A stretch of 58,579 bases of DNA, taken from assembly GCA_004299275.1 (NCBI GenBank), contig SCSU01000061.1, positions 1-58,579 on the forward strand. Direction: 5' to 3'. The notes beneath the pieces are model-generated. The model was given only the letters and a program-made list of their open reading frames with translations, was not told the DNA's origin and ran no database searches. Shown one piece after another: positions 1-50,033 of this stretch. The DNA comes from Patescibacteria group bacterium (lineage in GTDB: Bacteria > Patescibacteriota > Patescibacteriia > 2-12-FULL-57-11). How positions within the stretch are numbered: the stretch's first letter is position 1; every line of letters starts with the position of its first letter. A program made the position numbers and the translations under genes.

Positions 1-2
1 TA

Positions 3-251
3 AATGCAGGAGATAAAAATTCACTCAAGCGGAAACATCCGGCAACATTCCCTGACAAAATACCAACGGATTTCATCCAGTGTTTCTGCCCGCCAAAAGG
101 AGTGGTTCTGGATCCATTCATCGGCTGTGGATCAACAGCGGTTGCCGCAAAACAATTAGGCCGAAATTATATCGGTATTGATATCTCGAAAGAGTACTGC
201 AAACTAGCAGAGGAAAGAATCAAAACAATTGGAGATCCTCTGTTTGGGTGA
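3..251 (+). CDS. DNA methyltransferase (N4/N6, beta-class), C-terminal fragment; 5' end lies outside the window
   Basis: Frame open from window edge to TGA 249-251. Hand translation: ...KRKHPATFPDKIPTDFIQCFCPPKGVVLDPFIGCGSTAVAAKQLGRNYIGIDISKEYCKLAEERI. HPAxFP plus DPFxGxGST AdoMet motif are typical of the N6_N4 methylase family. Absent from the ORF track because it has no start. Confidence 0.8.
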   Translation, partial: NAGDKNSLKRKHPATFPDKIPTDFIQCFCPPKGVVLDPFIGCGSTAVAAKQLGRNYIGIDISKEYCKLAEERIKTIGDPLFG

Positions 252-259
252 TATTGAAG

Positions 260-1312
260 TTATTCAATCGTATATTCGATCCTGTTGCTCGCTGTCATCG
301 CTAGTGAAAATGGATTTCTATCAAATAATGCCTTGTAGGTTTGATTATTAAGCCGCATTCTTGCGGTTCTTGATTCGCCCGATAGCATACCCTTTTGGAG
401 TATTTTTAGATTAAAATTTTTCCAGTTCCATTGGCCGTCCAAATATTGCCATCCCATCATTCTCGCAAGTTCTCGAATGAATCCCTGTACTCTCTGGGCT
501 TCCGTTGAATGAAGGTCAAAATTGGAACCATTCCGGACTAGGTTGATCTGTGTGTTTTGGCCACTTGTTATTTTAATCTTATGGCCAGTTCTTTTGTTAT
601 TACCACCTTGTACAAAGTTTGTGCCATCAAAATAACCTGATGCGTTAAATCTATCTCGCATTGCAAAAAATCGCTCGAGATATTGCATTATTTGATAGAA
701 ATTTAAATCATTTTTACACAAAAATTTATTGAGAATATGGCCATCTTGATTGATCTTGAGATAATTAATCCAATCAAGGCAATTTTCTGGATATCCAAAA
801 AGGTTGTTGCCTACACCGTCGGCAAAAAGTAGTGGGCTTACTGCTGTATCGGGAAGATCGTTAATTATTCCACTTTCCTGCAAAATACCCAATAGCAGAT
901 GAATGGTTCCGAAAGGATACTTGCGTTGAAAGGCGGTTTTTCCATCAAAACCCCTCAATATATTTGGCTGAATGCACTCATCGAAGTTGCGATTATTAAC
1001 AACGAGATTGCGGTTATACTCAACGAGATGATTGCCCATGCTCCCTATGTCACGCCGGTTAATTTCGATATCTAAAAAAATACAATTTCTAAAATTTACA
1101 CCATCCTTGGAAATTAAAATTTTTCCGTCATAAAAACCAACTACTTCTCCATCAAGAAAGTTTGTAACTAACAATCCGCAGAGGAAACCGTCGCTATCCG
1201 GACTTAAAATATATTGTCGGCCTCGCTCGACAACCCATGGACGCCGTTCGATTAAATTTTCGTAATCAATCGGGCCACCGTTGTGTTGTGTTGTTCGTCG
1301 TTTTGTTGTCAT
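260..1312 (-). CDS. hypothetical protein, 350 aa; candidate restriction endonuclease or effector partner of the convergent methyltransferase
   Basis: Long ORF in the low-GC island. Its stop lies 8 nt from the stop of the convergent methylase. No family recognised by eye. Confidence 0.6.
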   Translation of the reverse strand: MTTKRRTTQHNGGPIDYENLIERRPWVVERGRQYILSPDSDGFLCGLLVTNFLDGEVVGFYDGKILISKDGVNFRNCIFLDIEINRRDIGSMGNHLVEYNRNLVVNNRNFDECIQPNILRGFDGKTAFQRKYPFGTIHLLLGILQESGIINDLPDTAVSPLLFADGVGNNLFGYPENCLDWINYLKINQDGHILNKFLCKNDLNFYQIMQYLERFFAMRDRFNASGYFDGTNFVQGGNNKRTGHKIKITSGQNTQINLVRNGSNFDLHSTEAQRVQGFIRELARMMGWQYLDGQWNWKNFNLKILQKGMLSGESRTARMRLNNQTYKALFDRNPFSLAMTASNRIEYTIE

Positions 1313-1314
1313 AA

Positions 1315-1785
1315 TTATCTATACTTGAACTCAACGTTCTTAATCTCGTGTTCATTTCCAAATTGGTCAAGTATAACCACATCAGCTTTAAAGGACTCGC
1401 CCTCTTTATGAAGCGGAGGTTGAATCCAAAAATCAAGCATTAACTGTGTCGTCTTTCTGGGGAGTATTGGATATCTACCAAAAACATTTGAGTTTGGGTG
1501 CTTTATTAGTGGCATAACTGTTTCGGTTTTTGGTTTTCTAATAAATCCGTTCGTGACGACTACTTGTTCCGTTGTTATGTTTGTTGCATACCATTGACTT
1601 ACCACTTGCATCGCTGGCTTATCTTTACTCAATCCCATATGCCACCAAGCTCCCAGTGACTGTAATACCATCTTTAAAGTTTGATTGGGAATGCTGGAAT
1701 CATTCGTCTTCTTTTCAGGAATCCTATTTAATAGCCATCCGAGAAACTTACTCAATAAATCAAAGATGGGAGTGTAGTCAATCAT
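1315..1785 (-). CDS. hypothetical protein, 156 aa, N-terminal hydrophobic helix
   Basis: ORF ends 2 nt before the start of the 350-aa ORF (operon-like). Same low GC. No recognisable motif. Confidence 0.5.
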   Translation of the reverse strand: MIDYTPIFDLLSKFLGWLLNRIPEKKTNDSSIPNQTLKMVLQSLGAWWHMGLSKDKPAMQVVSQWYATNITTEQVVVTNGFIRKPKTETVMPLIKHPNSNVFGRYPILPRKTTQLMLDFWIQPPLHKEGESFKADVVILDQFGNEHEIKNVEFKYR

Positions 1786-1891
1786 ATCTTAACATCAACC
1801 ACTTTTGAGGTGTCATTACCTTTCAGGGCTTTGATACCTCAGACTCTAATTTGGTGTGTCCGGGAGGATTTCTCACTCAGCCCCCCCTATT

Positions 1892-1963
1892 TGCACCCGC
1901 CAAGAGTCGAACTTGGATCCCAGGCTTCGGAGGCCTGTATTCTATCCATTGAACTACGGGTGC
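1892..1963 (-). tRNA. tRNA-Arg (anticodon CCG)
   Basis: Minus-strand read: GCACCCG-TA-GTTC..GAAT-A-CAGGC-CUCCGAA-GCCUG-..-CCAAG-TTCGACT-CTTGG-CGGGTGC-A. Cloverleaf with 7-bp acceptor stem and TTCGA T-loop. No encoded CCA. Confidence 0.85.
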
Positions 1964-1988
1964 AAGCAGAAGGTCTGAGTATGTTTGG

Positions 1989-2969
1989 CTACGGGCGCGT
2001 GAATTTTTTTGCAAGCGCGTAGATGGTATACCAAAACGGCCGGAGCGGCAATTCCCAGGAGTCGGGCGCGGTGAAGACCTCGCCGCCAAAGCCGCGCTTA
2101 AAGCGGCTGACGCCCGCGAGCGGATGCTCGGCCGAGTCCTCCGGCGCGATGCCCCAAAAGTCGTAGCTCTGACAGCCGCGGCTTTTTGCCCGGCGCATCG
2201 CCTGCCAATGCAGGAGATACGGCGCCATCACGTTTCGTTTTTTGTCGGACGAGCCGCCGTGGAGATAAGTCGCGGTGCCGCCGAAGAGCAGGAGTATCAT
2301 TCCGGCGAGAGCTTCGCCCTCGTGGTCGGCGAGCATAATCCGGCTTTGGCAAGATGAGCGGTCACTCGGCTCACCCACGAGCGTCTGGAGCATCTTTTGA
2401 TAATAATTTTTGGCGTGGAGCCGGAAGCGGTCGCGTTTGGACGCCGCCTCAAGGAGCGGCCAGAGTTCGGGAAAGAGTTCAGTCCCGCCCTCGCGGACAG
2501 TCACGCCTTTTTTTTCCGCCAGCCGGAGGTTGTAGCGGGTTTTCTCGTGCATGGCGGCGAGCAAAATATCTTCGTTTTTAGTCAGATTAAGAAGAAGCGT
2601 TGTTTGCGGCTGGATGGGCGTAGCCGAACGGGCAGCGGCCGGCCGGAATTCCAGTTTTTTATCCGCCGGGTCAACTCTCATAGCCAGACTGCGCTGTTCC
2701 CGCGCCGCCGCGATGACTTTTTTTAAAAATTCAGTTTTTTGCTCGGCCGTGAGCGTCGGTGAAAAAATCGGCCCGCGGGGGAGATAGGCGTTCTGCTGGC
2801 CCAAGGGCAGAGACCGGAGAATGATTTGCGCCAGCGCTCCCTCGGCCTCGACTCGCGTCACTGCCGTTCCGGCGGCTTTTTGGAATTCCCCCCATTCCCA
2901 GGAATGTAAAAACGAACCCGAACGCGGGCCGTTTTGAGTGACGAAAGAATTCCACGCCTCTCGATCCAT
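1989..2969 (-). CDS. FemAB-family peptidoglycan interpeptide-bridge aminoacyltransferase
   Basis: 326 aa. The C-terminal block YLHGGSSDKKRNVMAPYLLHWQAMRRAKSRGCQSYDFWGI is typical of FemA/FemB/FemX proteins. Confidence 0.75.
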   Translation of the reverse strand: MDREAWNSFVTQNGPRSGSFLHSWEWGEFQKAAGTAVTRVEAEGALAQIILRSLPLGQQNAYLPRGPIFSPTLTAEQKTEFLKKVIAAAREQRSLAMRVDPADKKLEFRPAAARSATPIQPQTTLLLNLTKNEDILLAAMHEKTRYNLRLAEKKGVTVREGGTELFPELWPLLEAASKRDRFRLHAKNYYQKMLQTLVGEPSDRSSCQSRIMLADHEGEALAGMILLLFGGTATYLHGGSSDKKRNVMAPYLLHWQAMRRAKSRGCQSYDFWGIAPEDSAEHPLAGVSRFKRGFGGEVFTAPDSWELPLRPFWYTIYALAKKFTRP

Positions 2970-3601: not shown

Positions 3602-5725
3602 CTAATAATTACATACCCCGCCGCGGCAGTCGCCGGCAAATTCCGACTCGGCGGTAACGTGGCGTTCCTGGCCGATGATGTCCAGCGTCCCCAAGGTCAG
3701 CACTTGGTCGGGCTTGGAACCGTAGCGATAAACCGTGATGCCTTTGCACTTGAGCTTCCATGCCAAGAGATAGGCCGCGCGCACGTCGGCAACCGTGGCC
3801 TTGGCCGGCAGATTAATGGTTTTGGAAACCGCGTTGTCCGTATATTTTTGAAAAACCGCTTGCATCCTCAAGTGATTCTCGGGAGAGATCTCGAGCGCAG
3901 TCCGAAAGAGTCGGCGCGCGTCCGCGGGGATGCCCTTGATTCCCGCGAGGTTGCCCTTGGCCGCGATTTCAAACAGCAAGTCCGAGGAATAGAAGCCCCG
4001 TTTTTTAGCGAACTCTTCAAAAAGAGGATTGACCTCGAGGAGCCGCGTGCCCTCCATCACATTGCGGACAAAGGCGACGGCAAAGAGCGGCTCAATCCCC
4101 GAGGAGCAGCCGGCGATAATCGAGATGGTGCCGGTCGGCGCGATGGTGGTTGTCGTCGCGTTCCGAAAAGCGCGGTAGCCGCGATGAGCCCAGAGCGAGC
4201 CCTTAAAGTTGGGGAAGGAACCGCGCGAGCGGCCGAGCTCAGCGCTTGCGCGGGAGCTCACGTCGCGGATGCGCTTTATCAGTTTGGCGCCGAACAGGAG
4301 CGCGCGGCGCGAGTCGTAAGGAATCCCGAGTTTAATTAATGTTTCAGCGAAGCCCATAACACCGAGCCCAATCCGGCGGTTCGCCAGCGTGGCGCGTTCA
4401 ATCTCCGGCAGGGGGTAATTGTTGGCGTCAAGCACGTTGTCCAAAAAGCGCACTGCGGTTTTGACTAAATAGTCGAGTTTGGCCCAGTCAAAACGTCCGT
4501 GGACGTCAAAAATTTTGGAGAGATTGATTGAACCGAGCGTGCAGGACTCCCAAGCGTGTAAAGGTTGCTCGCCGCAGGGATTTGTCGCCTCGATTCGTCC
4601 GAGATGCGCGGTCGGGTTTTTGCGGTCAATTTCGTCGAACCAGACCACGCCCGGGTCGCCGGTGCGCCAGGCCTCGGTTACGATTTGGTCAAAGATGTCG
4701 CGCGCCCCGACCCGCTCGCTGACTTTGCCGGAGCGCGGATTCACCAGCGATATTTTGCCGCGGCGGCTGACCGCCCGCATAAAAGCGTCGCTCGCGCCGA
4801 CCGAGAAGTTAAAATTGGAAAACGCTTTGCCGTCGGCTTTGGCCGTCACAAACTCGCGAATGCTCGGATGGGTGACAGCCAAAATCGCCATGTTGGCGCC
4901 GCGCCGTCGCCCGCCTTGTTTAATCACGTCGGTCGTGGTGTCAAAAAGCCGGATAAAAGAGACCGGCCCCGAGGCAATCCCGCCGGTCGAACGCACGATG
5001 TCGCCGCCCGGCCGGATGGCGGAAAAGGAAAAACCGGTGCCGCCGCCGGACTGGTGGATTTTGGCCGCGGCCTTAAGCCCGTCAAAAATGGAATCCAGCG
5101 AATCCTCAATCGGAATGACAAAACAGGCGGCGAGCTGGCCGGAGGGGAGTCCCGCGTTCATGAGCGTCGGCGAGTTGGGTAGGAACTCGCCGTTGGCCAT
5201 CATCCGGTAGAAAGTTTCCTCGGATTCGTCCACCGTGTCGCGCGCGCCGCCGTAGCGCTGTTCCGACTGGGCCACGGCGCGGGCCACGCGCCGGAAGAGC
5301 TGAGAGGGGGTCTCAATTGTCCGGCCCTCGCCGTCTTTTTTAAGATAGCGTTCGGCGAGGACTTTAATCGCGTTTACGCCGAGCTTGAGGTCGTCGCGGA
5401 CGCCGAAAAATTCCTTGATTCGCCGCGTCTTGGTCCGTTCGGCGCGGTAGAGGATAAAGGCCTTGGCCGCGTCAGCGAGTCCGCGCTCCATCAAGGAGTT
5501 TTCCACCGCGTCAGAGACATCTTCCACCGTCGGAATTTTTCGGCCGTAGGCCTCGGCGACAGTCGTCACCACTTGATTGGCTACGGAGCGCGCGACTTTG
5601 CCGTCTGGCCGGCTGACGGCCAGAATCGCTTTTTCCACGGCGCGGGCGATTTTTTCCTCGGAGAATGGCTCCAGCCGTCCGTCGCGTTTGCGGACGAATT
5701 TGGGGATCGCGTTTATCTTGGGCAT
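3602..5725 (-). CDS. nrdJ: adenosylcobalamin-dependent (class II) ribonucleotide reductase with N-terminal ATP-cone
   Basis: 707 aa. ATP-cone VRKRDGRLEPFSEEKIARAVEKA, active-site TNPCGEQPL, and a C-terminal Cys pair CRGGVCNY. Confidence 0.9.
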   Translation of the reverse strand: MPKINAIPKFVRKRDGRLEPFSEEKIARAVEKAILAVSRPDGKVARSVANQVVTTVAEAYGRKIPTVEDVSDAVENSLMERGLADAAKAFILYRAERTKTRRIKEFFGVRDDLKLGVNAIKVLAERYLKKDGEGRTIETPSQLFRRVARAVAQSEQRYGGARDTVDESEETFYRMMANGEFLPNSPTLMNAGLPSGQLAACFVIPIEDSLDSIFDGLKAAAKIHQSGGGTGFSFSAIRPGGDIVRSTGGIASGPVSFIRLFDTTTDVIKQGGRRRGANMAILAVTHPSIREFVTAKADGKAFSNFNFSVGASDAFMRAVSRRGKISLVNPRSGKVSERVGARDIFDQIVTEAWRTGDPGVVWFDEIDRKNPTAHLGRIEATNPCGEQPLHAWESCTLGSINLSKIFDVHGRFDWAKLDYLVKTAVRFLDNVLDANNYPLPEIERATLANRRIGLGVMGFAETLIKLGIPYDSRRALLFGAKLIKRIRDVSSRASAELGRSRGSFPNFKGSLWAHRGYRAFRNATTTTIAPTGTISIIAGCSSGIEPLFAVAFVRNVMEGTRLLEVNPLFEEFAKKRGFYSSDLLFEIAAKGNLAGIKGIPADARRLFRTALEISPENHLRMQAVFQKYTDNAVSKTINLPAKATVADVRAAYLLAWKLKCKGITVYRYGSKPDQVLTLGTLDIIGQERHVTAESEFAGDCRGGVCNY

Positions 5726-5877
5726 ACCCGGTGGTAGAACGCCGACTCGAACCCCGCTTAAGCGGGGTTCGACGAGCGAACACTTTTTACGACTATTAGC
5801 TTTTGTTCTGGGCTCTGCTTCATTGCCTTGAAGAAACTTTGCTCTAGGAACGCTGTCGGCGTTTCACCACCGGGCAT
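5726..5877 (-). promoter_or_regulatory. nrdJ leader cassette: 20-bp stem joining the uORF start to the nrdJ start, plus an internal 26-nt palindrome
   Basis: Minus-sense CCCGGTGGTGAAACGCCGAC (5874-5855) pairs with GTCGGCGTTCTACCACCGGG (5746-5727). Perfect palindrome TCGAACCCCGCTTAAGCGGGGTTCGA lies at 5747-5772. Confidence 0.6.
5758..5877 (-). CDS. conserved small upstream ORF, 39 aa (MPGGETPTAFLEQSFFKAMKQSPEQKLIVVKSVRSSNPA)
   Basis: Hand translation. Paralogue of the 45-aa uORF at 23793-23930: 22/39 identical residues, 12 of them through synonymous codon differences. Confidence 0.55.
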   Translation of the reverse strand: MPGGETPTAFLEQSFFKAMKQSPEQKLIVVKSVRSSNPA

Positions 5878-5885
5878 ACGGGAGT

Positions 5886-5894
5886 ATTGTAACA
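5886..5894 (-). promoter_or_regulatory. extended -10 promoter-like element TGTTACAAT, 8 nt upstream of the uORF ATG
   Basis: Sequence match only. Its counterpart TGTTATAGT sits in the equivalent position upstream of the valS uORF. Confidence 0.35.
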
Positions 5895-5950: not shown

Positions 5951-5981
5951 GAGGTTCGACCTCCTCGGGAGGTCGAACCTC
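5951..5981 (-). terminator. 31-nt palindrome 14 nt downstream of the ileS stop (family B, copy 1 of 2)
   Basis: GAGGTTCGACCTCC-TCG-GGAGGTCGAACCTC, a 14-bp stem. The same element lies 3' of rsmA at 50003-50033. Confidence 0.6.
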
Positions 5982-8892: not shown

Positions 8893-8914
8893 ACCCGGCA
8901 GTAGAATTTGTTAG

Positions 8915-8960
8915 CACGGACCTTGAAGGTCCGTTTTCACAGACCTTCAAGGTCCGTGTC
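8915..8960. repeat. GACCTTGAAGGTC double-palindrome module (family C, copy 1 of 3) in the ileS 5' leader
   Basis: CACGGACCTTGAAGGTCCGTTTTCACAGACCTTCAAGGTCCGTGTC. Near-identical copies lie at 13007 and 49134. Confidence 0.85.
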
Positions 8961-11700: not shown

Positions 11701-12980
11701 CAAGACCCGATCTCCATTGCGCATTAGATAAAAATAAAGTGTTACCGTAGTCGTGTTGGTATTTTGAAAAGTTTTTTAAGAATCGAGTCGCATTTTTGTT
11801 TGAGTACAATCGGGTTCAGTGTAGCATATTTCTGACGCAATCTTTCTTTTGTTTCAGGGTCAATATCCGGATGAGCCAGTACCCGCTGATATACTGTCTG
11901 CGCCGTATCGTACTTGCGCACTTTTCTGGAAAGAATCCGTACTTTCTCAATGCACTTCAAAGACGGAATGAAAAAGTTAATGTAATCTTCCAAAACATCA
12001 TAAAGTTCGTTTAAAATTGCGGCGTGTCGCAGATCGTTAAATCTAGTGTAACCCACGATATGTCTCACATTGGCGTAGTTCTTCTGTTCGATCCTCGCAT
12101 GGTCGTTTTTCATGTAAGGACGGGTGCGGGTCATCTTAATTTTCCGTTCATCGCACCACCCCTTAAGATGCCAATTGATGAATTCTCCTCCGGAATCCGG
12201 ATCAATGCCGCGTAACGGAAAGGGTAAACGTCTTTCAATTCGCTCAATACTGCGCACGGTTTCCATTTCTCCTTTGTTCCACTGCGCCGCCAGCATCGTC
12301 CAGATAGTTGCGACGTCCGTATACTGCACTGTATAGCAAAAATCGCCTGAAATCGTGTATCCGCAATGAGCCACAGTGTCCACCTCGCCCCACCCCGGAG
12401 GAGGATTCTCCCAAGGACCTCTTCGTACCGGAATGATTTCTTTAAGATTGGATGGTTTGGTTGCGCCTCGTCCGCCGCGACGTCTGATGTTCTCAAAATT
12501 AGCAATGCGGTTCTTAATGGTGCCGAGACTCGCCTGAAGCAAGAGACCGGTCGTTTCCTCAGCGTGCTTCCACATCCCGTCTCTCTTCAAAATTCTGATA
12601 TATTCTGGAATTGCCGGGTGCAGACGTTCGGCGCAGATGCGATTGGCGGCTGCCCATATCTCCTTAAGAGCCGCCGCAGTTCGGTGGTCATAGACCTTCT
12701 TCCTCCCGCGGCGTTCTTCGTAGGAGCTAGGGCGAAGATGAAACGTTCGGAACCTCCGGATGGCCGATTTTCGGAATACCTTCGTGATACTACAGACCGC
12801 GTCAAGGATTCGACCCTTTCCTGCTTTATCTGCGGTTAGATACTCCCGCAGTTTTTCCTTAAAAATCTCCTGTTTGGTAGCCATATTCATATACGGCTAC
12901 GGTAACAGGAATTATTATCTAACCGCTCCTGTCTCGGTAACAGTTATTTTTATCTAAAGCGCATTGGAGATCGGGTCTTG
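11701..12980 (-). mobile_element. insertion sequence, ~1,280 bp, ~48-bp imperfect terminal inverted repeats
   Basis: Left end: CAAGACCCGATCTCCATTGCGCATTAGATAAAAATAAAGTGTTACCGTAG. Reverse complement of right end: CAAGACCCGATCTCCAATGCGCTTTAGATAAAAATAACTGTTACCGAG. Single transposase ORF and lower GC. Confidence 0.85.
11742..12890 (-). CDS. DDE (rve/integrase-core type) transposase
   Basis: 382 aa. Candidate catalytic triad in GEVDTVAH ... GIDPDSGGEF ... HARIEQKN. IS family not assigned. Confidence 0.8.
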   Translation of the reverse strand: MNMATKQEIFKEKLREYLTADKAGKGRILDAVCSITKVFRKSAIRRFRTFHLRPSSYEERRGRKKVYDHRTAAALKEIWAAANRICAERLHPAIPEYIRILKRDGMWKHAEETTGLLLQASLGTIKNRIANFENIRRRGGRGATKPSNLKEIIPVRRGPWENPPPGWGEVDTVAHCGYTISGDFCYTVQYTDVATIWTMLAAQWNKGEMETVRSIERIERRLPFPLRGIDPDSGGEFINWHLKGWCDERKIKMTRTRPYMKNDHARIEQKNYANVRHIVGYTRFNDLRHAAILNELYDVLEDYINFFIPSLKCIEKVRILSRKVRKYDTAQTVYQRVLAHPDIDPETKERLRQKYATLNPIVLKQKCDSILKKLFKIPTRLR

Positions 12981-13006: not shown

Positions 13007-13050
13007 ACAGACCTTGAAGGTCTGTAAAAACGGACCTTCAAGGTCTGTGC
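13007..13050. repeat. GACCTTGAAGGTC double-palindrome module (family C, copy 2 of 3) in the tkt 5' leader
   Basis: ACAGACCTTGAAGGTCTGTAAAAACGGACCTTCAAGGTCTGTGC. Confidence 0.85.
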
Positions 13051-13073
13051 TCGCGATCTATTACCTACCGAGT

Positions 13074-13961
13074 ATGCCCCAAGTTACGCGCCAGCCGGAA
13101 CATCTCCACGACAAAAAATTGAAACAGCTCGAGGAGCGGGCGATGAAAATCCGCGAGGATATTATTGCCATGCTGACCGAAGCCGGGAGTGGCCATTCTG
13201 CCGGACCGCTGGGTATGGCCGATATTTTTACCGCGCTCTACTTCCACGTTCTTGTCCACGACCCGAAAAAACCGGACTGGCCCGAGCGCGACATCTTGCT
13301 CCTCTCAAACGGCCACATTTGTCCGGTGCGCTACGTAGCCATGGCTCATGCCGGTTACATCCCGAAGCGCGAGCTGATGACTCTGCGCAAATTCGGCTCG
13401 CGTCTCCAGGGGCATCCCGAGCGCGTTCGCTGGCCGGCACTTGAATCCACCTCCGGCCCCTTGGGTTCCGGGCTCCCCATTGGCGCCGGCATGGCCTACG
13501 CCTATAAGTATTTGGATAATAAACCCAACCGTGTTTTTGTGATTTCAAGCGACGGCGAGCTTGAGGCCGGGGTCAACTGGGAGGCGGCGCTTTTCGCGGC
13601 GCGCAACCGTCTGCATAATCTGACTTGGATTATTGACCGCAACAACATCCAGATTGACGGCTATACCGAGGACATCATGCCGCTCGAATCGCTCACGGAA
13701 AAATTTATGGCTTTCAATTTTCATGTATTGGAGATTGACGGACACAACATCCGCGAGTTCGTGGACGCGGTGGAGGAGGCCCGCGCGGTCTGGGAAAAGC
13801 CGACAGTGATTATCGCCCACACCATCCCCGGCCGGGGCGTGGATTTTATGGAGTTCGAGCCCTATTGGCACGGCGTGCCGCCCAAGCGCGGCGAGGAGGC
13901 GGAAAAGTCGCTGGCCGCGCTCCGGACGCTCGGGGGACGGATTGTGAGTGAGCATGAGTGA
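13074..13961 (+). CDS. transketolase, N-terminal (TPP/PP-domain) subunit
   Basis: MPQVTRQ...SGHSAGPLGMADIFTALYF...SSDGELEAGVNWEA. Start moved from 13014 to ATG 13074 because the upstream part is the repeat module. Confidence 0.85.
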   Translation: MPQVTRQPEHLHDKKLKQLEERAMKIREDIIAMLTEAGSGHSAGPLGMADIFTALYFHVLVHDPKKPDWPERDILLLSNGHICPVRYVAMAHAGYIPKRELMTLRKFGSRLQGHPERVRWPALESTSGPLGSGLPIGAGMAYAYKYLDNKPNRVFVISSDGELEAGVNWEAALFAARNRLHNLTWIIDRNNIQIDGYTEDIMPLESLTEKFMAFNFHVLEIDGHNIREFVDAVEEARAVWEKPTVIIAHTIPGRGVDFMEFEPYWHGVPPKRGEEAEKSLAALRTLGGRIVSEHE

Positions 13962-16138: not shown

Positions 16139-16168
16139 GCGCTTATCGCCTAGCGCTTATCGTTTATG
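16134..16168. repeat. heptamer array, GCTTATC orientation (left arm of four-helix-bundle cassette 1)
   Basis: GCTAAGC GCTTATC GCCTAGC GCTTATC GTTTATG. Spans the kinase stop and the cassette ATG. Confidence 0.85.
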
Positions 16169-16513
16169 TTTAGATTTGAGGGCCTGGAGATCTGGCAACT
16201 AGCAATCAAGTATGCTGAAAAGTTATACTCCGTCTCGCGGGCATTTCCAGATGAGGAACGTTACGCACTTGCTGATCAGCTCCGTCGCGCGGCAATCTCT
16301 ATTTCCAACAATATAGCCGAAGGTTCGGGTGGAACAGATAGAGAATTTCGTAACTTCCTTTCGATGAGTGTCAAGTCAACATTGGAGTGCATTAACATCT
16401 TAATTATTGCAGAACGTCTACGTTATATTTCGAGAGCAACGAAGGATTCTCTCTACGAGGAAGGAGAACGACTTATTCGTAAGATACGAAGTTTTCGCAA
16501 CACTTTTCCATAG
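16166..16513 (+). CDS. four-helix-bundle protein (23S rRNA intervening-sequence protein / Avd-like family)
   Basis: LEIWQLAIKYAEKLYSVSRAFPDEERYALADQLRRAAISISNNIAEG...EFRNFLSMSVKSTLE is the family signature. Confidence 0.85.
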   Translation: MFRFEGLEIWQLAIKYAEKLYSVSRAFPDEERYALADQLRRAAISISNNIAEGSGGTDREFRNFLSMSVKSTLECINILIIAERLRYISRATKDSLYEEGERLIRKIRSFRNTFP

Positions 16514-19755: not shown

Positions 19756-19783
19756 GTAGTACATAGAACGTAGAACATAGAAA
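19756..19783. repeat. heptamer array, GTAGAAC orientation (left arm of cassette 2)
   Basis: GTAGTAC ATAGAAC GTAGAAC ATAGAAA. Ends 3 nt before the cassette ATG. Confidence 0.85.
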
Positions 19784-19786
19784 TGT

Positions 19787-20191
19787 ATGCGGGTGAGTTC
19801 ATATAAGGATTTGATTGTTTGGCAGAAGGCAATGCAGCTTGTGAAAAAAGTGTATTCTCTAACACAGCTGCTACCCCGGGAGGAGCTGTATGGCCTCGCG
19901 AGTCAAATGAAGCGCGCCGCGGTTTCTGTCCCGTGCAATATCGCAGAGGGATTCAGGCGAAACCACCGGCAAGAGCAAATCCAGTTCTTTGCGGTCTCGT
20001 ATGGCTCGGGTGCTGAACTGGAAACTCAGATTGAGATTTGCAAGCAGCTCGGTTTTGCAAAAGCGGAACAGACCAAGGTCGCAGAGGATATTCTCAATGA
20101 GGTGATGAGGATGCTTAACACATTTTCCATTCCCATGAGCCGACGCCTCCAAGATTCAACTACCAACTACGTTCTACGTTCTACGTTCTGA
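19787..20191 (+). CDS. four-helix-bundle protein (23S rRNA intervening-sequence protein / Avd-like family)
   Basis: LIVWQKAMQLVKKVYSLTQLLPREELYGLASQMKRAAVSVPCNIAEG. The C-terminal TTNYVLRSTF is encoded by the right-arm heptamers. Confidence 0.85.
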   Translation: MRVSSYKDLIVWQKAMQLVKKVYSLTQLLPREELYGLASQMKRAAVSVPCNIAEGFRRNHRQEQIQFFAVSYGSGAELETQIEICKQLGFAKAEQTKVAEDILNEVMRMLNTFSIPMSRRLQDSTTNYVLRSTF

Positions 20192-23752: not shown

Positions 23753-23782
23753 TTGCAACCCGCCCCGTCCGCTTGTTATAGT
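23753..23782 (+). promoter_or_regulatory. promoter-like TTGCAA - 18 nt - TGTTATAGT upstream of the valS leader
   Basis: Sequence match only. The -10 ends 10 nt before the uORF ATG. Confidence 0.4.
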
Positions 23783-23792
23783 TCCCTGCAGT

Positions 23793-23930
23793 ATGCCCGG
23801 TAGTGAAACGCCGGCAGCATGCATAGAACAAGGTTTCTTAAGGGCTATAAAACTGAATCAAGAGCAAACGCTCTTAATCGCAAAGAATGTCCGTTCGCCG
23901 AATCCAGCCCCTGTTTCCGGTAATGGGTGA
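23793..23930 (+). CDS. conserved small upstream ORF, 45 aa (MPGSETPAACIEQGFLRAIKLNQEQTLLIAKNVRSPNPAPVSGNG)
   Basis: Hand translation. Paralogue of the nrdJ uORF, with a third-codon-position substitution pattern between the two. Confidence 0.55.
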   Translation: MPGSETPAACIEQGFLRAIKLNQEQTLLIAKNVRSPNPAPVSGNG

Positions 23931-24016
23931 AATTCAAACAAGGTGCAGCATTAAAACAATAATTATTCGCCGACAGAAACAGGGGCTGGGTTCGGAGCCG
24001 GCGTTCTACTACCGGG
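23796..24016 (+). promoter_or_regulatory. valS leader structure: 20-bp closing stem plus inner 14-bp stem
   Basis: CCCGGTAGTGAAACGCCGGC (23796-23815) pairs with GCCGGCGTTCTACTACCGGG (23997-24016). CCAGCCCCTGTTTC (23904-17) pairs with GAAACAGGGGCTGG (23976-89). Confidence 0.6.
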
Positions 24017-24017
24017 T

Positions 24018-37205: not shown

Positions 37206-37237
37206 GGACGAGCTATTGAGTAGGCTCGTCCATTTTT
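37206..37237 (+). terminator. intrinsic-terminator-like hairpin inside the nusA leader
   Basis: GGACGAGC-TATTGAGTAG-GCTCGTCC followed by ATTTTT. Confidence 0.6.
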
Positions 37238-37255
37238 CTACTCGTTCTCTAATTT

Positions 37256-37290
37256 CTACTCACGACTCACTATTCCCGACTCACTACTTT
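37256..37290. repeat. heptamer array, CGACTCA family, ends 1 nt before the nusA ATG
   Basis: CTACTCA CGACTCA CTATTCC CGACTCA CTACTTT. Confidence 0.8.
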
Positions 37291-37291
37291 T

Positions 37292-39835: not shown

Positions 39836-39868
39836 TAGAGTGAGGTTGGTGTCTGGAATTTTGTGTTT

Positions 39869-39896
39869 GGATTTCGGATTTCGGAATTTGGGATTT
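39869..39896. repeat. heptamer array GGATTTC GGATTTC GGAATTT GGGATTT
   Basis: Direct reading. Lies 10 nt upstream of ATG 39907. Confidence 0.75.
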
Positions 39897-39906
39897 TTAT
39901 TTTGTT

Positions 39907-47183: not shown

Positions 47184-47242
47184 ATAGCGAATAGCGAATA
47201 GCGAATGAAAGCGAATTCAAAGCAAATAACAGCGAATAGCAG
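47184..47242. repeat. heptamer array (ATAGCGA)x3 plus degenerate units, ends at the tsaC ATG
   Basis: ATAGCGA ATAGCGA ATAGCGA ATGAAAG CGAATTC AAAGCAA ATAACAG CGAATAG CAG-ATG. Confidence 0.8.
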
Positions 47243-49099: not shown

Positions 49100-49100
49100 T

Positions 49101-49182
49101 ATGCCCGGTAGTGAAACGCCGACGGCAAGCCGGACACAGACCTTGAAGGTCTGTAAAAACGGACCTTCAAGGTCTGTGTGTA
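49101..49182 (+). promoter_or_regulatory. rsmA leader: uORF head (ATGCCCGGTAGTGAAACGCCGAC) fused to the family C module
   Basis: The first 9 codons, MPGSETPTA, match the nrdJ/valS uORF heads. There is no 3' arm. The frame is open into rsmA. Confidence 0.6.
49134..49180. repeat. GACCTTGAAGGTC double-palindrome module (family C, copy 3 of 3)
   Basis: ACACAGACCTTGAAGGTCTGTAAAAACGGACCTTCAAGGTCTGTGTG. Confidence 0.85.
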
Positions 49183-49988
49183 TGGATTTAACCGACCGTA
49201 CAGAATTGCGCGCGCTTCTTGCCCGCCACGGCATCACGCTGGCCAAAACCTACGGCCAGCATTTTTTGGTTGACCGCCGCGTGCTGGAGATGATTGTGGA
49301 AACAGCCTTCCCTATTCCCTATACCCTATTCCCTATACCCCTAGTTTTCGAGGTCGGCCCCGGCGCCGGCACGCTCACGCGTGAACTTGCGGCGCGCGCC
49401 GGGCGCGTCATCGCCGTTGAGCGCGACCCGCGTTTTTTGCCCGTGCTCGAGGAGACGCTCAGCGAGTTTGGCAATGTTCAAATCATCGAAGCCGACGCCT
49501 TAAAAATCTCCTTCAGTCAACTCACCCCTCCCTATACCCTAGACCCTAGACCCTATACCCTTGTCTCCAACCTCCCTTACGAAATCACCACGCCTTTTCT
49601 CTGGAAAATTTTGGAAGAGGAGCCGGTTGTGCCGGCGCAAGCCGTCCTCTTAATCCAAGCCGATGTCGCCGAGCGAATTCTGGCCAAGCCGCCCAAGATG
49701 AATCTGCTCGCGCTTTTGGTCCAGCTCTCGGGCGAGGTGAAACTTGTCCGCAAGGTTCCGGCTTCGGCATTTTTTCCGCCGCCGCGGGTCCAGAGCGCGA
49801 TTATTGAAATCATCCCCAGATTGGATATCCGCCAAGCGCCAAGCGCTAAGCGCCAAGCTCTTTCCTTGGCCCGCCGCGCTTTTGCCAACCCCCGCAAAAA
49901 ATTAGGCAATACTTTGGGCAATCAGGCCGGGCGTTTTGCCGCTCGCCGGCCCGGGGAGCTCGGGGTGGAGGACTGGCTGGAGTTGTGA
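49183..49988 (+). CDS. rsmA: 16S rRNA (adenine1518/1519-N6)-dimethyltransferase RsmA/KsgA with three in-frame heptamer insertions
   Basis: MDLTDRTELRALLARHGITLAKTYGQHFLVD...EVGPGAGTLT...SNLPYEITTP. Start set at ATG 49183; the track ORF (49050) reads through the leader repeats. Confidence 0.85.
49311..49338. repeat. heptamer array CCTATTC CCTATAC CCTATTC CCTATAC inside rsmA
   Basis: Direct reading. Encodes FPIPYTLFPIP just before the EVGPGAGTLT SAM motif. Confidence 0.9.
49530..49560. repeat. heptamer array CCCTATA CCCTAGA CCCTAGA CCCTATA inside rsmA
   Basis: Direct reading. Encodes PPYTLDPRPYT just before SNLPY. Confidence 0.9.
49831..49858. repeat. heptamer array GCCAAGC GCCAAGC GCTAAGC GCCAAGC inside rsmA
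   Basis: Direct reading. Encodes RQAPSAKRQAL. Confidence 0.9.
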
Positions 49989-50002
49989 TTTATGCTCGCC
50001 AG

Positions 50003-50033
50003 AGGTTCGACCTCCTCGGGAGGTCGAACCTCG
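50003..50033 (+). terminator. 31-nt palindrome 14 nt after the rsmA stop (family B, copy 2)
   Basis: GAGGTTCGACCTCC-TCG-GGAGGTCGAACCTC. Its flanks also match the ileS copy in the same gene-relative orientation. Confidence 0.6.

What the first reader, a model, noticed from the sequence alone, without database searches (positions are those of the whole stretch)
5723..5894. Second copy of the same uORF-plus-stem cassette upstream of nrdJ, with coding-type and compensatory substitutions
On the minus strand, TGTTACAAT (5894-5886) is followed 8 nt later by ATG 5877. The ORF encodes MPGGETPTAFLEQSFFKAMKQSPEQKLIVVKSVRSSNPA and stops at TAA 5760-5758.

Codon-by-codon comparison with the valS uORF:
- 22 of 39 residues are identical.
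- 12 of those 22 use different synonymous codons (for example GTC/GTT, CGT/CGC, AAT/AAC, CCA/CCC, GCC/GCT in the last 13 codons).
- This third-position pattern is what purifying selection on a peptide produces.

The 20-bp stem is preserved: CCCGGTGGTGAAACGCCGAC pairs with GTCGGCGTTCTACCACCGGG, ending 1 nt before the nrdJ ATG.
- Two positions have changed on both strands relative to valS (A-U to G-C, and G-C to A-U).
- The same G.U and A.C positions are retained.

The uORF again terminates inside a hairpin, with its TAA in the centre of the perfect palindrome at 5747-5772. TATG again flanks both ends.

Two unrelated essential genes therefore carry the same composite element.
Basis: seen in the sequence. 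Interest (0 to 1): 0.85.

Follow-up and report, generated by a model that had tools for sequence, protein, structure and literature searches.

The report
Mobile palindromic insert at leaderless start codons
A small repeated DNA element with inverted-repeat ends has landed exactly on the start codons of nrdJ and valS in an uncultured Patescibacteria (CPR) bacterium, so each essential gene now sits behind a short upstream reading frame and a long RNA stem that buries its true start codon.

Summary
All coordinates check: the 39-codon uORF, the 20-nt arms, the palindrome around the TAA, 22/39 identical residues (12 with synonymous codon changes) and two compensatory arm changes.

The interpretation needs revising.
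- **It is an insertion.** Eight orthologous contigs from CPR relatives lack the cassette. Most have an extended -10 box 8-10 nt before the gene's own ATG, a leaderless layout. In the window the same promoter-to-ATG spacing is kept, but the cassette sits after a duplicated (G)TATG.
- **It is a repeat family.** There are two full copies (149 and 221 nt). Chimeric or partial copies sit at ksgA, ileS and a transketolase gene, fused to a second repeat.
- **Nothing related was found elsewhere.** Rfam, Pfam, NCBIfam, 1.8 billion protein representatives, phages and plasmids gave no match.
- **The coding signal is only suggestive.** P is about 0.02-0.04 over codons 9-39 and is not significant outside the inner hairpin. 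An antisense frame gives a similar dN/dS.

Best reading: a MITE-like or palindromic mobile element. Its frame, opened by the ancestral leaderless AUG, probably lets ribosomes melt the stem that hides the real start. This mechanism is inferred, not shown. I rate it a new variant of a known kind, of moderate interest.

The parts
5886..5894 (-). Extended -10 promoter TGTTACAAT, 8 nt upstream of the first ATG (ancestral leaderless nrdJ promoter)
   Evidence: Sequence. The same TGnTAnnnT + 6-10 nt + ATG layout occurs at rpiB, pfkB, tyrS and other genes. It also occurs at nrdJ in relatives L127 and L128.
5758..5877 (-). uORF of 39 codons plus TAA. It is opened by the ancestral or duplicated start codon ATG 5877-5875.
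   Evidence: It is the only frame open in both full copies.
5855..5874 (-). Left arm / terminal inverted repeat CCCGGTGGTGAAACGCCGAC
5747..5772 (-). Inner perfect 26-nt palindrome TCGAACCCCGCTTAAGCGGGGTTCGA, with the uORF stop in its loop
   Evidence: The stem is kept in the valS copy through 2-3 compensatory changes.
5727..5746 (-). Right arm / terminal inverted repeat GTCGGCGTTCTACCACCGGG, ending 1 nt before the nrdJ ATG
3602..5725 (-). nrdJ (B12-dependent ribonucleotide reductase, 707 aa). Its true start is ATG 5725, preceded by the second TATG.
   Evidence: Pfam PF03477/PF00317/PF02867. The N-terminus MPK...VRKRDGRLEPF aligns with relatives.
23774..23782 (+). Extended -10 promoter TGTTATAGT, 10 nt upstream of the first ATG of the valS copy
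   Evidence: valS in relatives has the same spacing directly to its own ATG.
23793..23930 (+). valS-copy uORF of 45 codons plus TGA
23796..23815 (+). Left arm of the valS copy, CCCGGTAGTGAAACGCCGGC
23898..23995 (+). Inner hairpin of the valS copy: a 20-bp stem and a 58-nt AT-rich loop (about 72 nt extra relative to the nrdJ copy). The uORF stop lies in the loop.
23997..24016 (+). Right arm of the valS copy, GCCGGCGTTCTACTACCGGG, followed by T and the valS ATG at 24018
   Evidence: valS (24018-26804) is confirmed by Pfam.
49100..49184 (+). Chimeric copy at ksgA/rsmA: TATG, left arm (49104-49123), D2 double hairpin (49136-49178), then GTATG. The first ATG (49101) is in frame with the ksgA ATG (49182), with 27 open codons between them.
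8893..8958 (-). Partial copy in the ileS leader: D2 double hairpin (8958-8916), right-arm remnant TTCTACTGCCGGG (8906-8894), T, then the ileS ATG at 8892. It has no left arm and no uORF.
13007..13076 (+). Partial copy in the transketolase leader: D2 double hairpin (13007-13049), degenerate right-arm-like TCTATTACCTACCGAG, T, then ATG at 13074

Best explanation
The cassette is a copy of a lineage-specific, non-autonomous mobile palindromic element, either MITE-like or IS200/REP-type. The full copies are 149 nt (nrdJ) and 221 nt (valS). Each has 20-nt terminal inverted repeats bounded by TATG direct repeats.

**Origin (shown).** Each copy inserted at the T|ATG of a gene that ancestrally had a leaderless or near-leaderless mRNA, with an extended -10 box 8-10 nt before the ATG.

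**Consequences (inferred).**
- The transcript's 5'-terminal AUG now opens a 39-45-codon frame inside the element.
- The arms plus the quasi-palindromic UAUG form a 24-25-bp stem. This stem pairs the 5' end with the nucleotides up to and including the real start codon.

**Most likely mechanism (inferred).**
- A 70S ribosome loads co-transcriptionally on the 5' AUG before the right arm has been made.
- Translation of the element's frame keeps the left arm single-stranded. This exposes the genuine AUG for initiation or reinitiation.
- The host gene's expression therefore becomes coupled to leaderless translation of the uORF.
- RNase III cleavage of the long duplex may contribute.

Selection for this tolerance or coupling would explain the open frame and the compensatory stem changes. 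The insertion and the anatomy are shown. The transcription start, uORF translation and coupling are inferred.
For: **Insertion**
- nrdJ in relative L128 reads TGTTAGAAT-gtaaccgt-ATGCCAAAG, and in L127 TGATAGAAT-acggctgt-ATGAAG.
- The window reads TGTTACAAT-actcccgt-ATGCCC[cassette]gggtATGCCCAAG.
- valS in relatives L123, L124 and L125 has its -10 box 9-10 nt before its own ATG, always preceded by T. The window has TGTTATAGT + 10 nt + ATG + cassette.
- No cassette was found in any of the relatives' loci by nhmmer.

**Mobile-element anatomy**
- The inverted symmetry starts exactly after TATG and ends exactly before TATG in both copies.
- There are 2 full and 3 partial or chimeric copies within 58 kb.
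- The interior is variable, with a 72-nt indel and the D2 chimeras.

**Leaderless usage**
- Several other genes have TGnTAnnnT + 6-8 nt + ATG.

**Structure**
- Fold z-scores are -9.7 and -9.2.
- Two of two arm differences are compensatory, as are 2-3 in the inner hairpin.

**Modelling**
- P(unpaired) for AUG1 is 0.02-0.03 in the full leader.
- The AUG2 region opens from 0.12-0.21 to 0.42-0.57 only when nt 1-32 are occupied. A ribosome at the stop codon does not open it.

**Other points**
- There is no internal promoter or terminator on the gene strand.
- Frame 0 is the only frame open in both copies, with dN/dS of 0.17-0.28.
- Published precedents exist: MITEs that carry conserved ORFs (PMC10969869), leaderless uORFs ahead of genes in mycobacteria (PMC4633059), and the dependence of leaderless initiation on start-codon accessibility (PMC8459731).
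Against: - Only two full copies exist, so covariation and coding statistics are thin. The coding signal is not significant outside the stems.
- No autonomous parent element or transposase with matching ends was found. The only IS in the window has unrelated 37-bp ends.
- No additional copies could be retrieved from public collections. Mobility is therefore inferred from anatomy and empty orthologous sites in rather distant relatives (ValS about 60%, NrdJ 67-75% identity).
- 28 of 46 genes start with T-ATG. Landing on start codons needs no special targeting and proves no function.
- The distance from uORF stop to gene AUG differs between copies (32 against 87 nt). This argues against simple termination-reinitiation.
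- In the equilibrium fold, AUG1 itself is buried.
- There are no expression data.
Confidence: 0.55

Rival explanations
1. It is a purely selfish or neutral MITE-like insertion. The uORF is an accidental open frame created by the duplicated ATG. The host gene is expressed despite the element, for example after RNase III cuts the 24-25-bp duplex and leaves a short-leader mRNA, or through stem breathing. Arm symmetry is kept because both ends must be recognised by the same transposase, or is homogenised through hairpin repair, and not because of RNA function.
For: - It has the same insertion and TIR/TSD anatomy as the best explanation.
- The coding signal is not significant outside the stems, and an antisense frame gives an equal dN/dS.
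- The chance of no stop arising under random mutation is about 0.4.
- Symmetric changes in both terminal repeats are expected if one protein reads both ends.
- Decayed partial copies at ileS and tkt show that the element can erode.
- Correia elements are a precedent for RNase III action on transcribed MITE hairpins (PMC2649163).
Against: - At 24-30% divergence between copies, a neutral element should have lost stem pairing and probably its frame. Instead 0 of 4 arm changes are uncompensated, and the inner hairpin also co-varies.
- Both copies place the stop in the inner hairpin loop.
- Essential genes with a buried start codon need some route to expression.
Confidence: 0.27
2. It is a dedicated cis-regulatory leader, such as an attenuator or riboregulator, that senses a physiological signal (amino-acid supply, translation capacity or a ligand). 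It was recruited to valS and nrdJ, and later partly to ileS, tkt and ksgA.
For: - It sits in front of housekeeping genes involved in translation and nucleotide supply.
- It has a conserved two-stem architecture with covariation.
- The uORF stop sits in a hairpin loop in both copies.
Against: - It is absent from every orthologous site examined in relatives.
- No Rfam family matches, even at E up to 10.
- No terminator follows the hairpin.
- The uORF has no run of Val or other regulatory codons.
- The partial copies lack the uORF altogether.
- The TATG-bounded inverted repeats are better explained by transposition.
Confidence: 0.1
3. The 39-45-residue peptide is a genuine small protein with a function of its own, acting in trans. 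The stems are incidental.
For: - dN/dS is 0.17-0.28 and replacements are mostly conservative.
- A BLOSUM permutation gives P of 0.02-0.04 over codons 9-39.
Against: - No homologue was found in 5.8 billion clustered proteins or 1.84 billion representatives.
- No Pfam or NCBIfam match was found.
- The C-terminus differs between the copies.
- The signal vanishes outside the hairpin region.
- The ksgA copy keeps only the first 9 codons.
Confidence: 0.05

Closest known systems
Bacterial MITEs with transcribed hairpins, e.g. Neisseria Correia repeat-enclosed elements (CREE)
   Same: - Size of about 100-250 bp.
- Terminal inverted repeats flanked by short direct repeats.
- Multiple copies next to genes.
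- When co-transcribed, the inverted repeats form a long duplex that can be bound or cut by RNase III and alters expression of the adjacent gene (PMC2649163, PMC2229807).
   Different: - The flanking repeat here is TATG (4-5 nt), not TA.
- There is no sequence similarity.
- The element sits exactly on the start codon of leaderless genes and supplies a frame opened by that start codon.
- RNase III action is untested here.
Rickettsia palindromic elements (RPE) and other ORF-carrying MITEs (ERIC, BOX)
   Same: - These are palindromic repeats of about 150 bp that carry an open frame with a conserved peptide.
- They are tolerated inside or next to essential genes (PMC10969869).
- The ksgA copy here is an in-frame, stop-free 27-codon N-terminal addition.
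   Different: In the nrdJ and valS copies the frame ends in a stop before the gene (nrdJ is also out of frame, at 152 nt). The result is a uORF and not a protein fusion.
Leaderless upstream small ORFs of mycobacteria (including Cys-rich attenuator uORFs) and synthetic leaderless bicistronic designs
   Same: - A 5'-terminal AUG opens a short ORF ahead of an annotated gene on the same transcript.
- The uORF is proposed to tune or enable downstream translation (PMC4633059, PMC10367133).
   Different: - Those uORFs are vertically conserved at one locus and are not bounded by inverted repeats.
- Here the uORF arrived with a repeated insertion, and it is combined with a 24-25-bp stem that buries the downstream start.
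Translational coupling by ribosome-mediated unfolding of a long-range stem (the classic coat-replicase pairing of RNA phage MS2, and erm leader peptides; from textbook knowledge)
   Same: The downstream start site is sequestered by pairing with a sequence inside an upstream ORF, and is predicted to open only while a ribosome covers that sequence.
   Different: - No stalling signal or antibiotic or ligand input is apparent.
- The upstream ORF is leaderless.
- None of this has been demonstrated experimentally here.
REP/REPIN and IS200/IS605-type palindrome-associated elements (single-strand transposition 3' of a tetranucleotide)
   Same: - Each arm folds into a small local hairpin (prefix folds) and contains GTAG or GTGG.
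- Insertion 3' of a fixed tetranucleotide (TATG), with the element itself ending in TATG, would give the same junctions.
- The co-resident D2 repeat looks like a REP doublet.
   Different: - No Y1/RAYT transposase is present in the window.
- The arms are long-range inverted repeats and not same-strand subterminal hairpins.
- REPs usually lie at the 3' ends of genes.

Membership tests
MITE (non-autonomous DNA transposon) | Small size (under about 500 bp) with no transposase gene | tested here: met
   The TIR-to-TIR spans are 149 nt (5874-5726) and 221 nt (23796-24016). The only ORF is a 39-45-codon peptide with no family match.
MITE (non-autonomous DNA transposon) | Terminal inverted repeats | tested here: met
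   The arms are 20 nt, with 18/20 Watson-Crick pairs plus one G.T in each copy.
MITE (non-autonomous DNA transposon) | Target-site duplication, with empty sites holding a single copy of the target | tested here: met
   - TATG (GTATG) flanks both ends of both full copies.
- Orthologous nrdJ and valS sites in relatives have a single T-ATG and no insert.
- Caveat: the relatives are distant, and an element that itself ends in TATG (IS200-like) would look the same.
MITE (non-autonomous DNA transposon) | Multiple dispersed copies in the genome | tested here: inconclusive
   There are 2 full and 3 partial or chimeric copies in the 58.6-kb window. The rest of the genome could not be reached.
MITE (non-autonomous DNA transposon) | A related autonomous element whose transposase recognises the same ends | tested here: not met
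   - The only IS in the window (11701-12980, rve/IS481-like) has unrelated 37-bp TIRs.
- No other transposase was found among the ORFs scanned.
- The collection scans found only chance hits.
- Absence from 58 kb does not exclude a parent element elsewhere.
Leader-peptide transcription attenuator | A uORF enriched in codons for the regulated amino acid | tested here: not met
   The valS uORF has only 2 Val codons and no runs.
Leader-peptide transcription attenuator | Terminator hairpin with a U-tract, alternating with an antiterminator | tested here: not met
   There is no terminator-like site on the gene strand inside either cassette. The inner hairpin is followed by AGUCGGCG.
Known structured cis-regulatory RNA (Rfam: riboswitch, T-box, leaders) | Match to a curated covariance model | tested here: not met
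   No hit reached the gathering score. At E up to 10 there were only sub-threshold hits to generic hairpins.
Translational coupling by uORF-dependent unfolding | The downstream start is sequestered by pairing with a sequence inside the upstream ORF | tested here: met
   The predicted stem pairs uORF codons 1-8 with the 24 nt up to and including the gene's AUG.
Translational coupling by uORF-dependent unfolding | Downstream translation depends on uORF translation | not testable with these tools
   Only thermodynamic modelling is available. Occupying nt 1-32 raises P(unpaired) of the AUG2 region from 0.12-0.21 to 0.42-0.57.
Correia-like RNase III-processed MITE transcript | A duplex of at least about 20 bp that is cleaved by RNase III | not testable with these tools
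   A 24-25-bp duplex with one A.C mismatch is predicted. Cleavage cannot be tested here.
Conserved small-protein family | Homologues in other genomes | tested here: not met
   There were no homologues. One search returned only two hits, both to long repetitive proteins. Pfam and NCBIfam gave no match.

The most novel reading that the evidence does not exclude
The element is a mobile insert adapted to leaderless genes. It targets the T|ATG of a leaderless start and brings an in-frame translatable ORF plus a start-codon-sequestering stem. This converts the host gene into a leaderless bicistron whose expression is locked to co-transcriptional 70S loading. It would act as a self-neutralising, and possibly switch-like, translational coupler that spreads between essential genes.
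Probability: 0.25. Interest if true: 0.7.

Novelty: new variant of a known kind. Interest (0 to 1): 0.5.

Why it matters
If the coupling is real, three things follow.
- **Tolerance in a reduced genome.** It would show how a reduced CPR genome that relies on leaderless mRNAs tolerates selfish DNA landing on the start codons of essential genes. It might even exploit it.
- **Natural counterpart to a synthetic design.** It would be a natural version of synthetic leaderless bicistronic designs.
- **A test case for leaderless initiation.** It would allow tests of co-transcriptional 70S initiation, and of reinitiation without a Shine-Dalgarno sequence, in an uncultured lineage.

There is also a practical point. 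Gene callers may mis-start or mis-annotate genes that carry such inserts.

Tried and rejected
**Searches that led nowhere**
- **GTDB genomes.** The pattern CCCGGTRGTRRAACGCCG was too degenerate. 
- **Metagenome contigs.** The 21-nt left-arm pattern gave 3 chance hits without the element.
- **Viral contigs.** The left-arm pattern gave 0 hits.
- **Phages and plasmids.** blastn gave no match.
- **Exact look-up of the window's NrdJ.** It is not on record.
- **Peptide homologues.** None were found.
- **Analogous elements in relatives.** I looked for ATG-to-ATG inverted-repeat cassettes of different sequence in the relatives' loci. Only spurious hits appeared.

**Ideas rejected**
- **Assembly duplication.** The copies are 76% identical and have different flanks.
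- **Internal promoter or terminator.** None was found.
- **Known ribozyme or riboswitch.** Rfam gave nothing.
- **Archaeal-type bulge-helix-bulge intron.** The stem has no bulges.
- **Gene-60-type ribosomal bypassing from AUG to AUG.** There is no nascent-peptide or take-off context, and the gap is 150-225 nt. I considered this only from my own knowledge and did not test it.
- **The neighbouring IS at 11701-12980 as the parent element.** Its ends are unrelated.
- **An antisense ORF.** It has a stop in the valS copy.
Full report
**Observation**

- TGTTACAAT lies at 5894-5886. Eight nucleotides follow, then ATG 5877.
- The 39-codon ORF ends at TAA 5760-5758.
- The left arm CCCGGTGGTGAAACGCCGAC is at 5874-5855. 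The right arm GTCGGCGTTCTACCACCGGG is at 5746-5727. One T follows, then the nrdJ ATG at 5725.
- The TAA sits at the centre of the 26-nt perfect palindrome at 5772-5747.

The second full copy precedes valS at 23793-24017 on the plus strand.
- The two copies are 76% identical over the shared part. The valS copy has about 72 extra nucleotides inside the distal hairpin.
- The flanks differ, so this is not an assembly duplicate.
- The arm motif occurs 4 times at up to 3 mismatches, against 0.01 expected.
- The leaders fold to -80.3 and -100.2 kcal/mol, with z-scores of -9.7 and -9.2.
- Codon-by-codon comparison gives 22/39 identical residues. Twelve of them use different synonymous codons. Differences by codon position are 7/8/15.
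- Both arm differences are compensatory, and the G.U and A.C positions are retained. With the flanking GUAUG/UAUGC, the outer stem is 24-25 bp long and includes both start codons.
- The inner hairpin also keeps its pairing, through 2-3 double changes and one G.U.

**The family is wider than two copies**

- A third left arm, preceded by TATG, lies at 49100-49123 in front of ksgA/rsmA. It is fused to a 43-nt double hairpin, D2 (ACAGACCTTGAAGGTCTGTAAAAACGGACCTTCAAGGTCTGTG), and has no right arm.
- The first ATG of that copy (49101) is in frame with the ksgA ATG (49182), with 27 open codons between them.
- The ileS leader holds D2 plus a right-arm remnant, TTCTACTGCCGGG-T-ATG (8958-8890, minus strand). 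The transketolase leader holds D2 plus a more degenerate remnant (13007-13076).
- The arms therefore occur with different interiors and in decayed forms. Every copy abuts a start codon.

**Organism and ancestral state**

- The closest ValS proteins (best 61% identity) are from Patescibacteria, including Candidatus Uhrbacteria, Magasanikbacteria and Buchananbacteria.
- The closest NrdJ proteins are 67-75% identical and lie next to ruvA and a FemAB gene, as in the window.
- No relative at 90% identity or above is in the protein collection.
- In four nrdJ relatives (five contigs) and three valS relatives (four contigs) the cassette is absent (nhmmer found nothing).
- In most of these loci the gene's own ATG lies 8-10 nt after an extended -10 box:
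  - L128 nrdJ: TGTTAGAAT-gtaaccgt-ATGCCAAAG
  - L127 nrdJ: TGATAGAAT-acggctgt-ATGAAG
  - L123, L124 and L125 valS: -10 box, then 9-10 nt, then T-ATG
- The exceptions are nrdJ in L120/L121 (28 nt) and L122 (14 nt).
- The window keeps the same promoter-to-ATG spacing: TGTTACAAT-actcccgt-ATGCCC for nrdJ, and TGTTATAGT + 10 nt + ATG for valS. The cassette follows, and the native N-terminus (MPK... for NrdJ) resumes after the second TATG.
- The same leaderless-type layout is seen at rpiB, a pfkB kinase, tyrS and the IS transposase in the window.

The cassette is therefore an insertion into ancestral leaderless or near-leaderless start codons, with (G)TATG present on both sides.

**What kind of thing it is**

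- **Anatomy.** The inverted symmetry begins exactly after the left TATG and ends exactly before the right TATG. The elements are 149 and 221 nt long and carry no transposase. Their interiors are variable. Empty orthologous sites exist.
- **Element type.** This is the anatomy of a MITE. An IS200/REP-like element that inserts 3' of TATG and itself ends in TATG would give the same junctions.
- **No parent element.** The only IS in the window (11701-12980, rve/IS481-like) has unrelated 37-bp ends. No other transposase was found among the ORFs scanned.
- **Start-codon targeting is not required.** In this genome 28 of 46 genes start with T-ATG, and only 40 TATG sites are fully intergenic. A TATG-seeking element that can survive only outside coding sequence would often end up on start codons.
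- **No relatives elsewhere.** No match was found in Rfam, among phages or plasmids, in viral contigs or in JGI metagenomes. The GTDB scan was uninformative because my pattern was too loose.

**Is the uORF under peptide selection?**

The evidence is suggestive only.
- Frame 0 is the only frame open in both copies.
- dN/dS is 0.17-0.28, and most replacements are conservative.
- A permutation that keeps the number and type of substitutions gives P = 0.02-0.04 for codons 9-39. It gives only 0.15-0.19 for codons 9-32, the part that lies in neither stem.
- Several of the 'synonymous' changes in codons 33-39 are one half of compensatory pairs in the inner hairpin.
- The antisense frame that shares wobble positions gives the same dN/dS.
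- The peptide has no homologue in 5.8 billion clustered proteins. Among 1.84 billion representatives the only two hits were to long repetitive proteins. Pfam and NCBIfam gave no match.
- MITEs that carry conserved ORFs are known, for example RPE, ERIC and BOX (PMC10969869).

**How it probably works (inferred)**

- No promoter-like site lies inside either cassette on the gene strand, and no terminator follows the hairpins. Transcription attenuation and an internal promoter are therefore unlikely.
- The uORF has no regulatory codon runs.
- In the complete leader both AUGs are paired: P(unpaired) is 0.02-0.03 for AUG1.
- Before the right arm is transcribed, the nrdJ 5' AUG is about half accessible. 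The valS AUG1 is predicted to stay largely paired (P(unpaired) 0.03-0.17) in a local hairpin.
- Forcing nt 1-32 to be single-stranded, as a ribosome on the left arm would, raises accessibility of the real start region from 0.12-0.21 to 0.42-0.57. A ribosome parked at the uORF stop codon does not open it.
- Leaderless initiation is known to depend on start-codon accessibility (PMC8459731), and leaderless uORFs precede genes in mycobacteria (PMC4633059).

The most economical mechanism has three steps. A 70S ribosome loads co-transcriptionally on the ancestral 5' AUG. Translation of the element's frame then holds the stem open. The genuine AUG is used by initiating or reinitiating ribosomes.

Two further points bear on this model.
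- The unequal distances from uORF stop to gene AUG (32 and 87 nt) argue that unfolding matters more than tight termination-reinitiation.
- A 24-25-bp duplex is also a plausible RNase III substrate, as shown for Correia elements (PMC2649163). Cleavage would produce a short-leader mRNA. This could be an alternative or an additional route.
- The decayed ileS and tkt copies, which lack the left arm and the uORF, look like resolved states in which the start codon is no longer sequestered.

**Rivals**

- **Neutral selfish element with an accidental frame.** This remains a serious alternative (about 0.27). Symmetric changes in both terminal repeats are also what a shared transposase-binding site would give.
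- **Dedicated regulatory leader (about 0.1).** It is disfavoured by absence from all orthologous sites, the lack of attenuator features and the transposon-like boundaries.
- **Trans-acting small protein (about 0.05).** It is disfavoured by the lack of homologues and the variable C-terminus.

**Verdict**

The feature is best described as a lineage-specific MITE-like palindromic insert sitting on the start codons of leaderless essential genes. It creates a leaderless uORF and a start-burying stem that has been maintained by compensatory change. This is a new variant of known kinds (ORF-carrying MITEs, leaderless uORFs, stem-unfolding coupling) and not a new class. Interest is moderate (0.5). It would rise if more copies confirmed coding and structural selection, or if reporters showed uORF-dependent expression.

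Noticed in passing
window 11701-12980: A complete insertion sequence with 37-bp terminal inverted repeats (95% complementary). They enclose a 382-aa ORF with weak rve/IS481-type DDE transposase matches. The ORF has a leaderless-type promoter (TGTTACCGT + 8 nt + ATG). The element lies immediately upstream of the transketolase partial cassette.
   Followed up: partly
window 13007-13049, 49136-49178, 8916-8958: The D2 double hairpin (ACAGACCTTGAAGGTCTGTAAAAACGGACCTTCAAGGTCTGTG) looks like a REP doublet. Two copies are 100% identical and one is 81% identical. All three lie in 5' leaders (tkt, ksgA, ileS) in the same orientation relative to the gene, and all are fused to pieces of the cassette arms.
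   Followed up: partly
window 5951-5981 and 50002-50032: An identical 31-nt perfect palindrome, GAGGTTCGACCTCCTCGGGAGGTCGAACCTC, lies just downstream of the ileS stop (between ileS and the nrdJ promoter) and just downstream of the ksgA stop. It is a third repeated hairpin family, terminator-like but without a T-run.
   Followed up: no
window, upstream of many genes, e.g. 16134-16163/16521-16550, 19757-19798, 37230-37291, 39850-39906, 47196-47242: Short heptamer-like tandem repeats (AGCGATA, TAGAACG, CTCACGA, GGATTTC and AATAGCG types) lie directly upstream of many start codons. They also flank the two PF05635 '23S rRNA intervening sequence' four-helix-bundle genes (16166-16513, 19787-20191). 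Similar GGAACAT-type repeats lie upstream of valS in relative L125.
   Followed up: partly
window 49303-49340 and 49523-49560: CCCTATW-type tandem repeats lie inside the ksgA/rsmA reading frame. They encode stretches such as FPIPYTLFPIP just before the SAM-binding motif, as if low-complexity repeats were inserted in frame into a housekeeping gene.
   Followed up: no
window 1-2000: This region is 40% G+C, against 52-62% elsewhere. It holds two ORFs (260-1312, 1315-1785) without Pfam or NCBIfam matches, next to tRNA-Arg (1891-1964). It may be foreign DNA integrated at a tRNA gene.
   Followed up: no
window, all gene starts: 28 of 46 called genes have T at position -1 of the ATG. Several have an extended -10 box 6-10 nt upstream, for example rpiB (9535), a pfkB kinase (17712) and tyrS (27301). 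This suggests widespread leaderless or near-leaderless mRNAs in this CPR lineage.
   Followed up: partly
L120 1768-1797 (relative's nrdJ leader): In the 75%-identical relative, nrdJ has a 28-nt spacer between the -10 box and the ATG. This spacer ends in CACCTCCCT, which resembles the anti-Shine-Dalgarno sequence and not an SD.
   Followed up: no
window 23918-23975: The extra segment of about 72 nt in the valS copy is AT-rich. It is bounded by its own 9-bp inverted repeat (CCCTGTTTC/GAAACAGGG) and replaces the central TTAA of the nrdJ-type palindrome. It may be a nested small insertion, and it also supplies the last six uORF codons and the stop.
   Followed up: no
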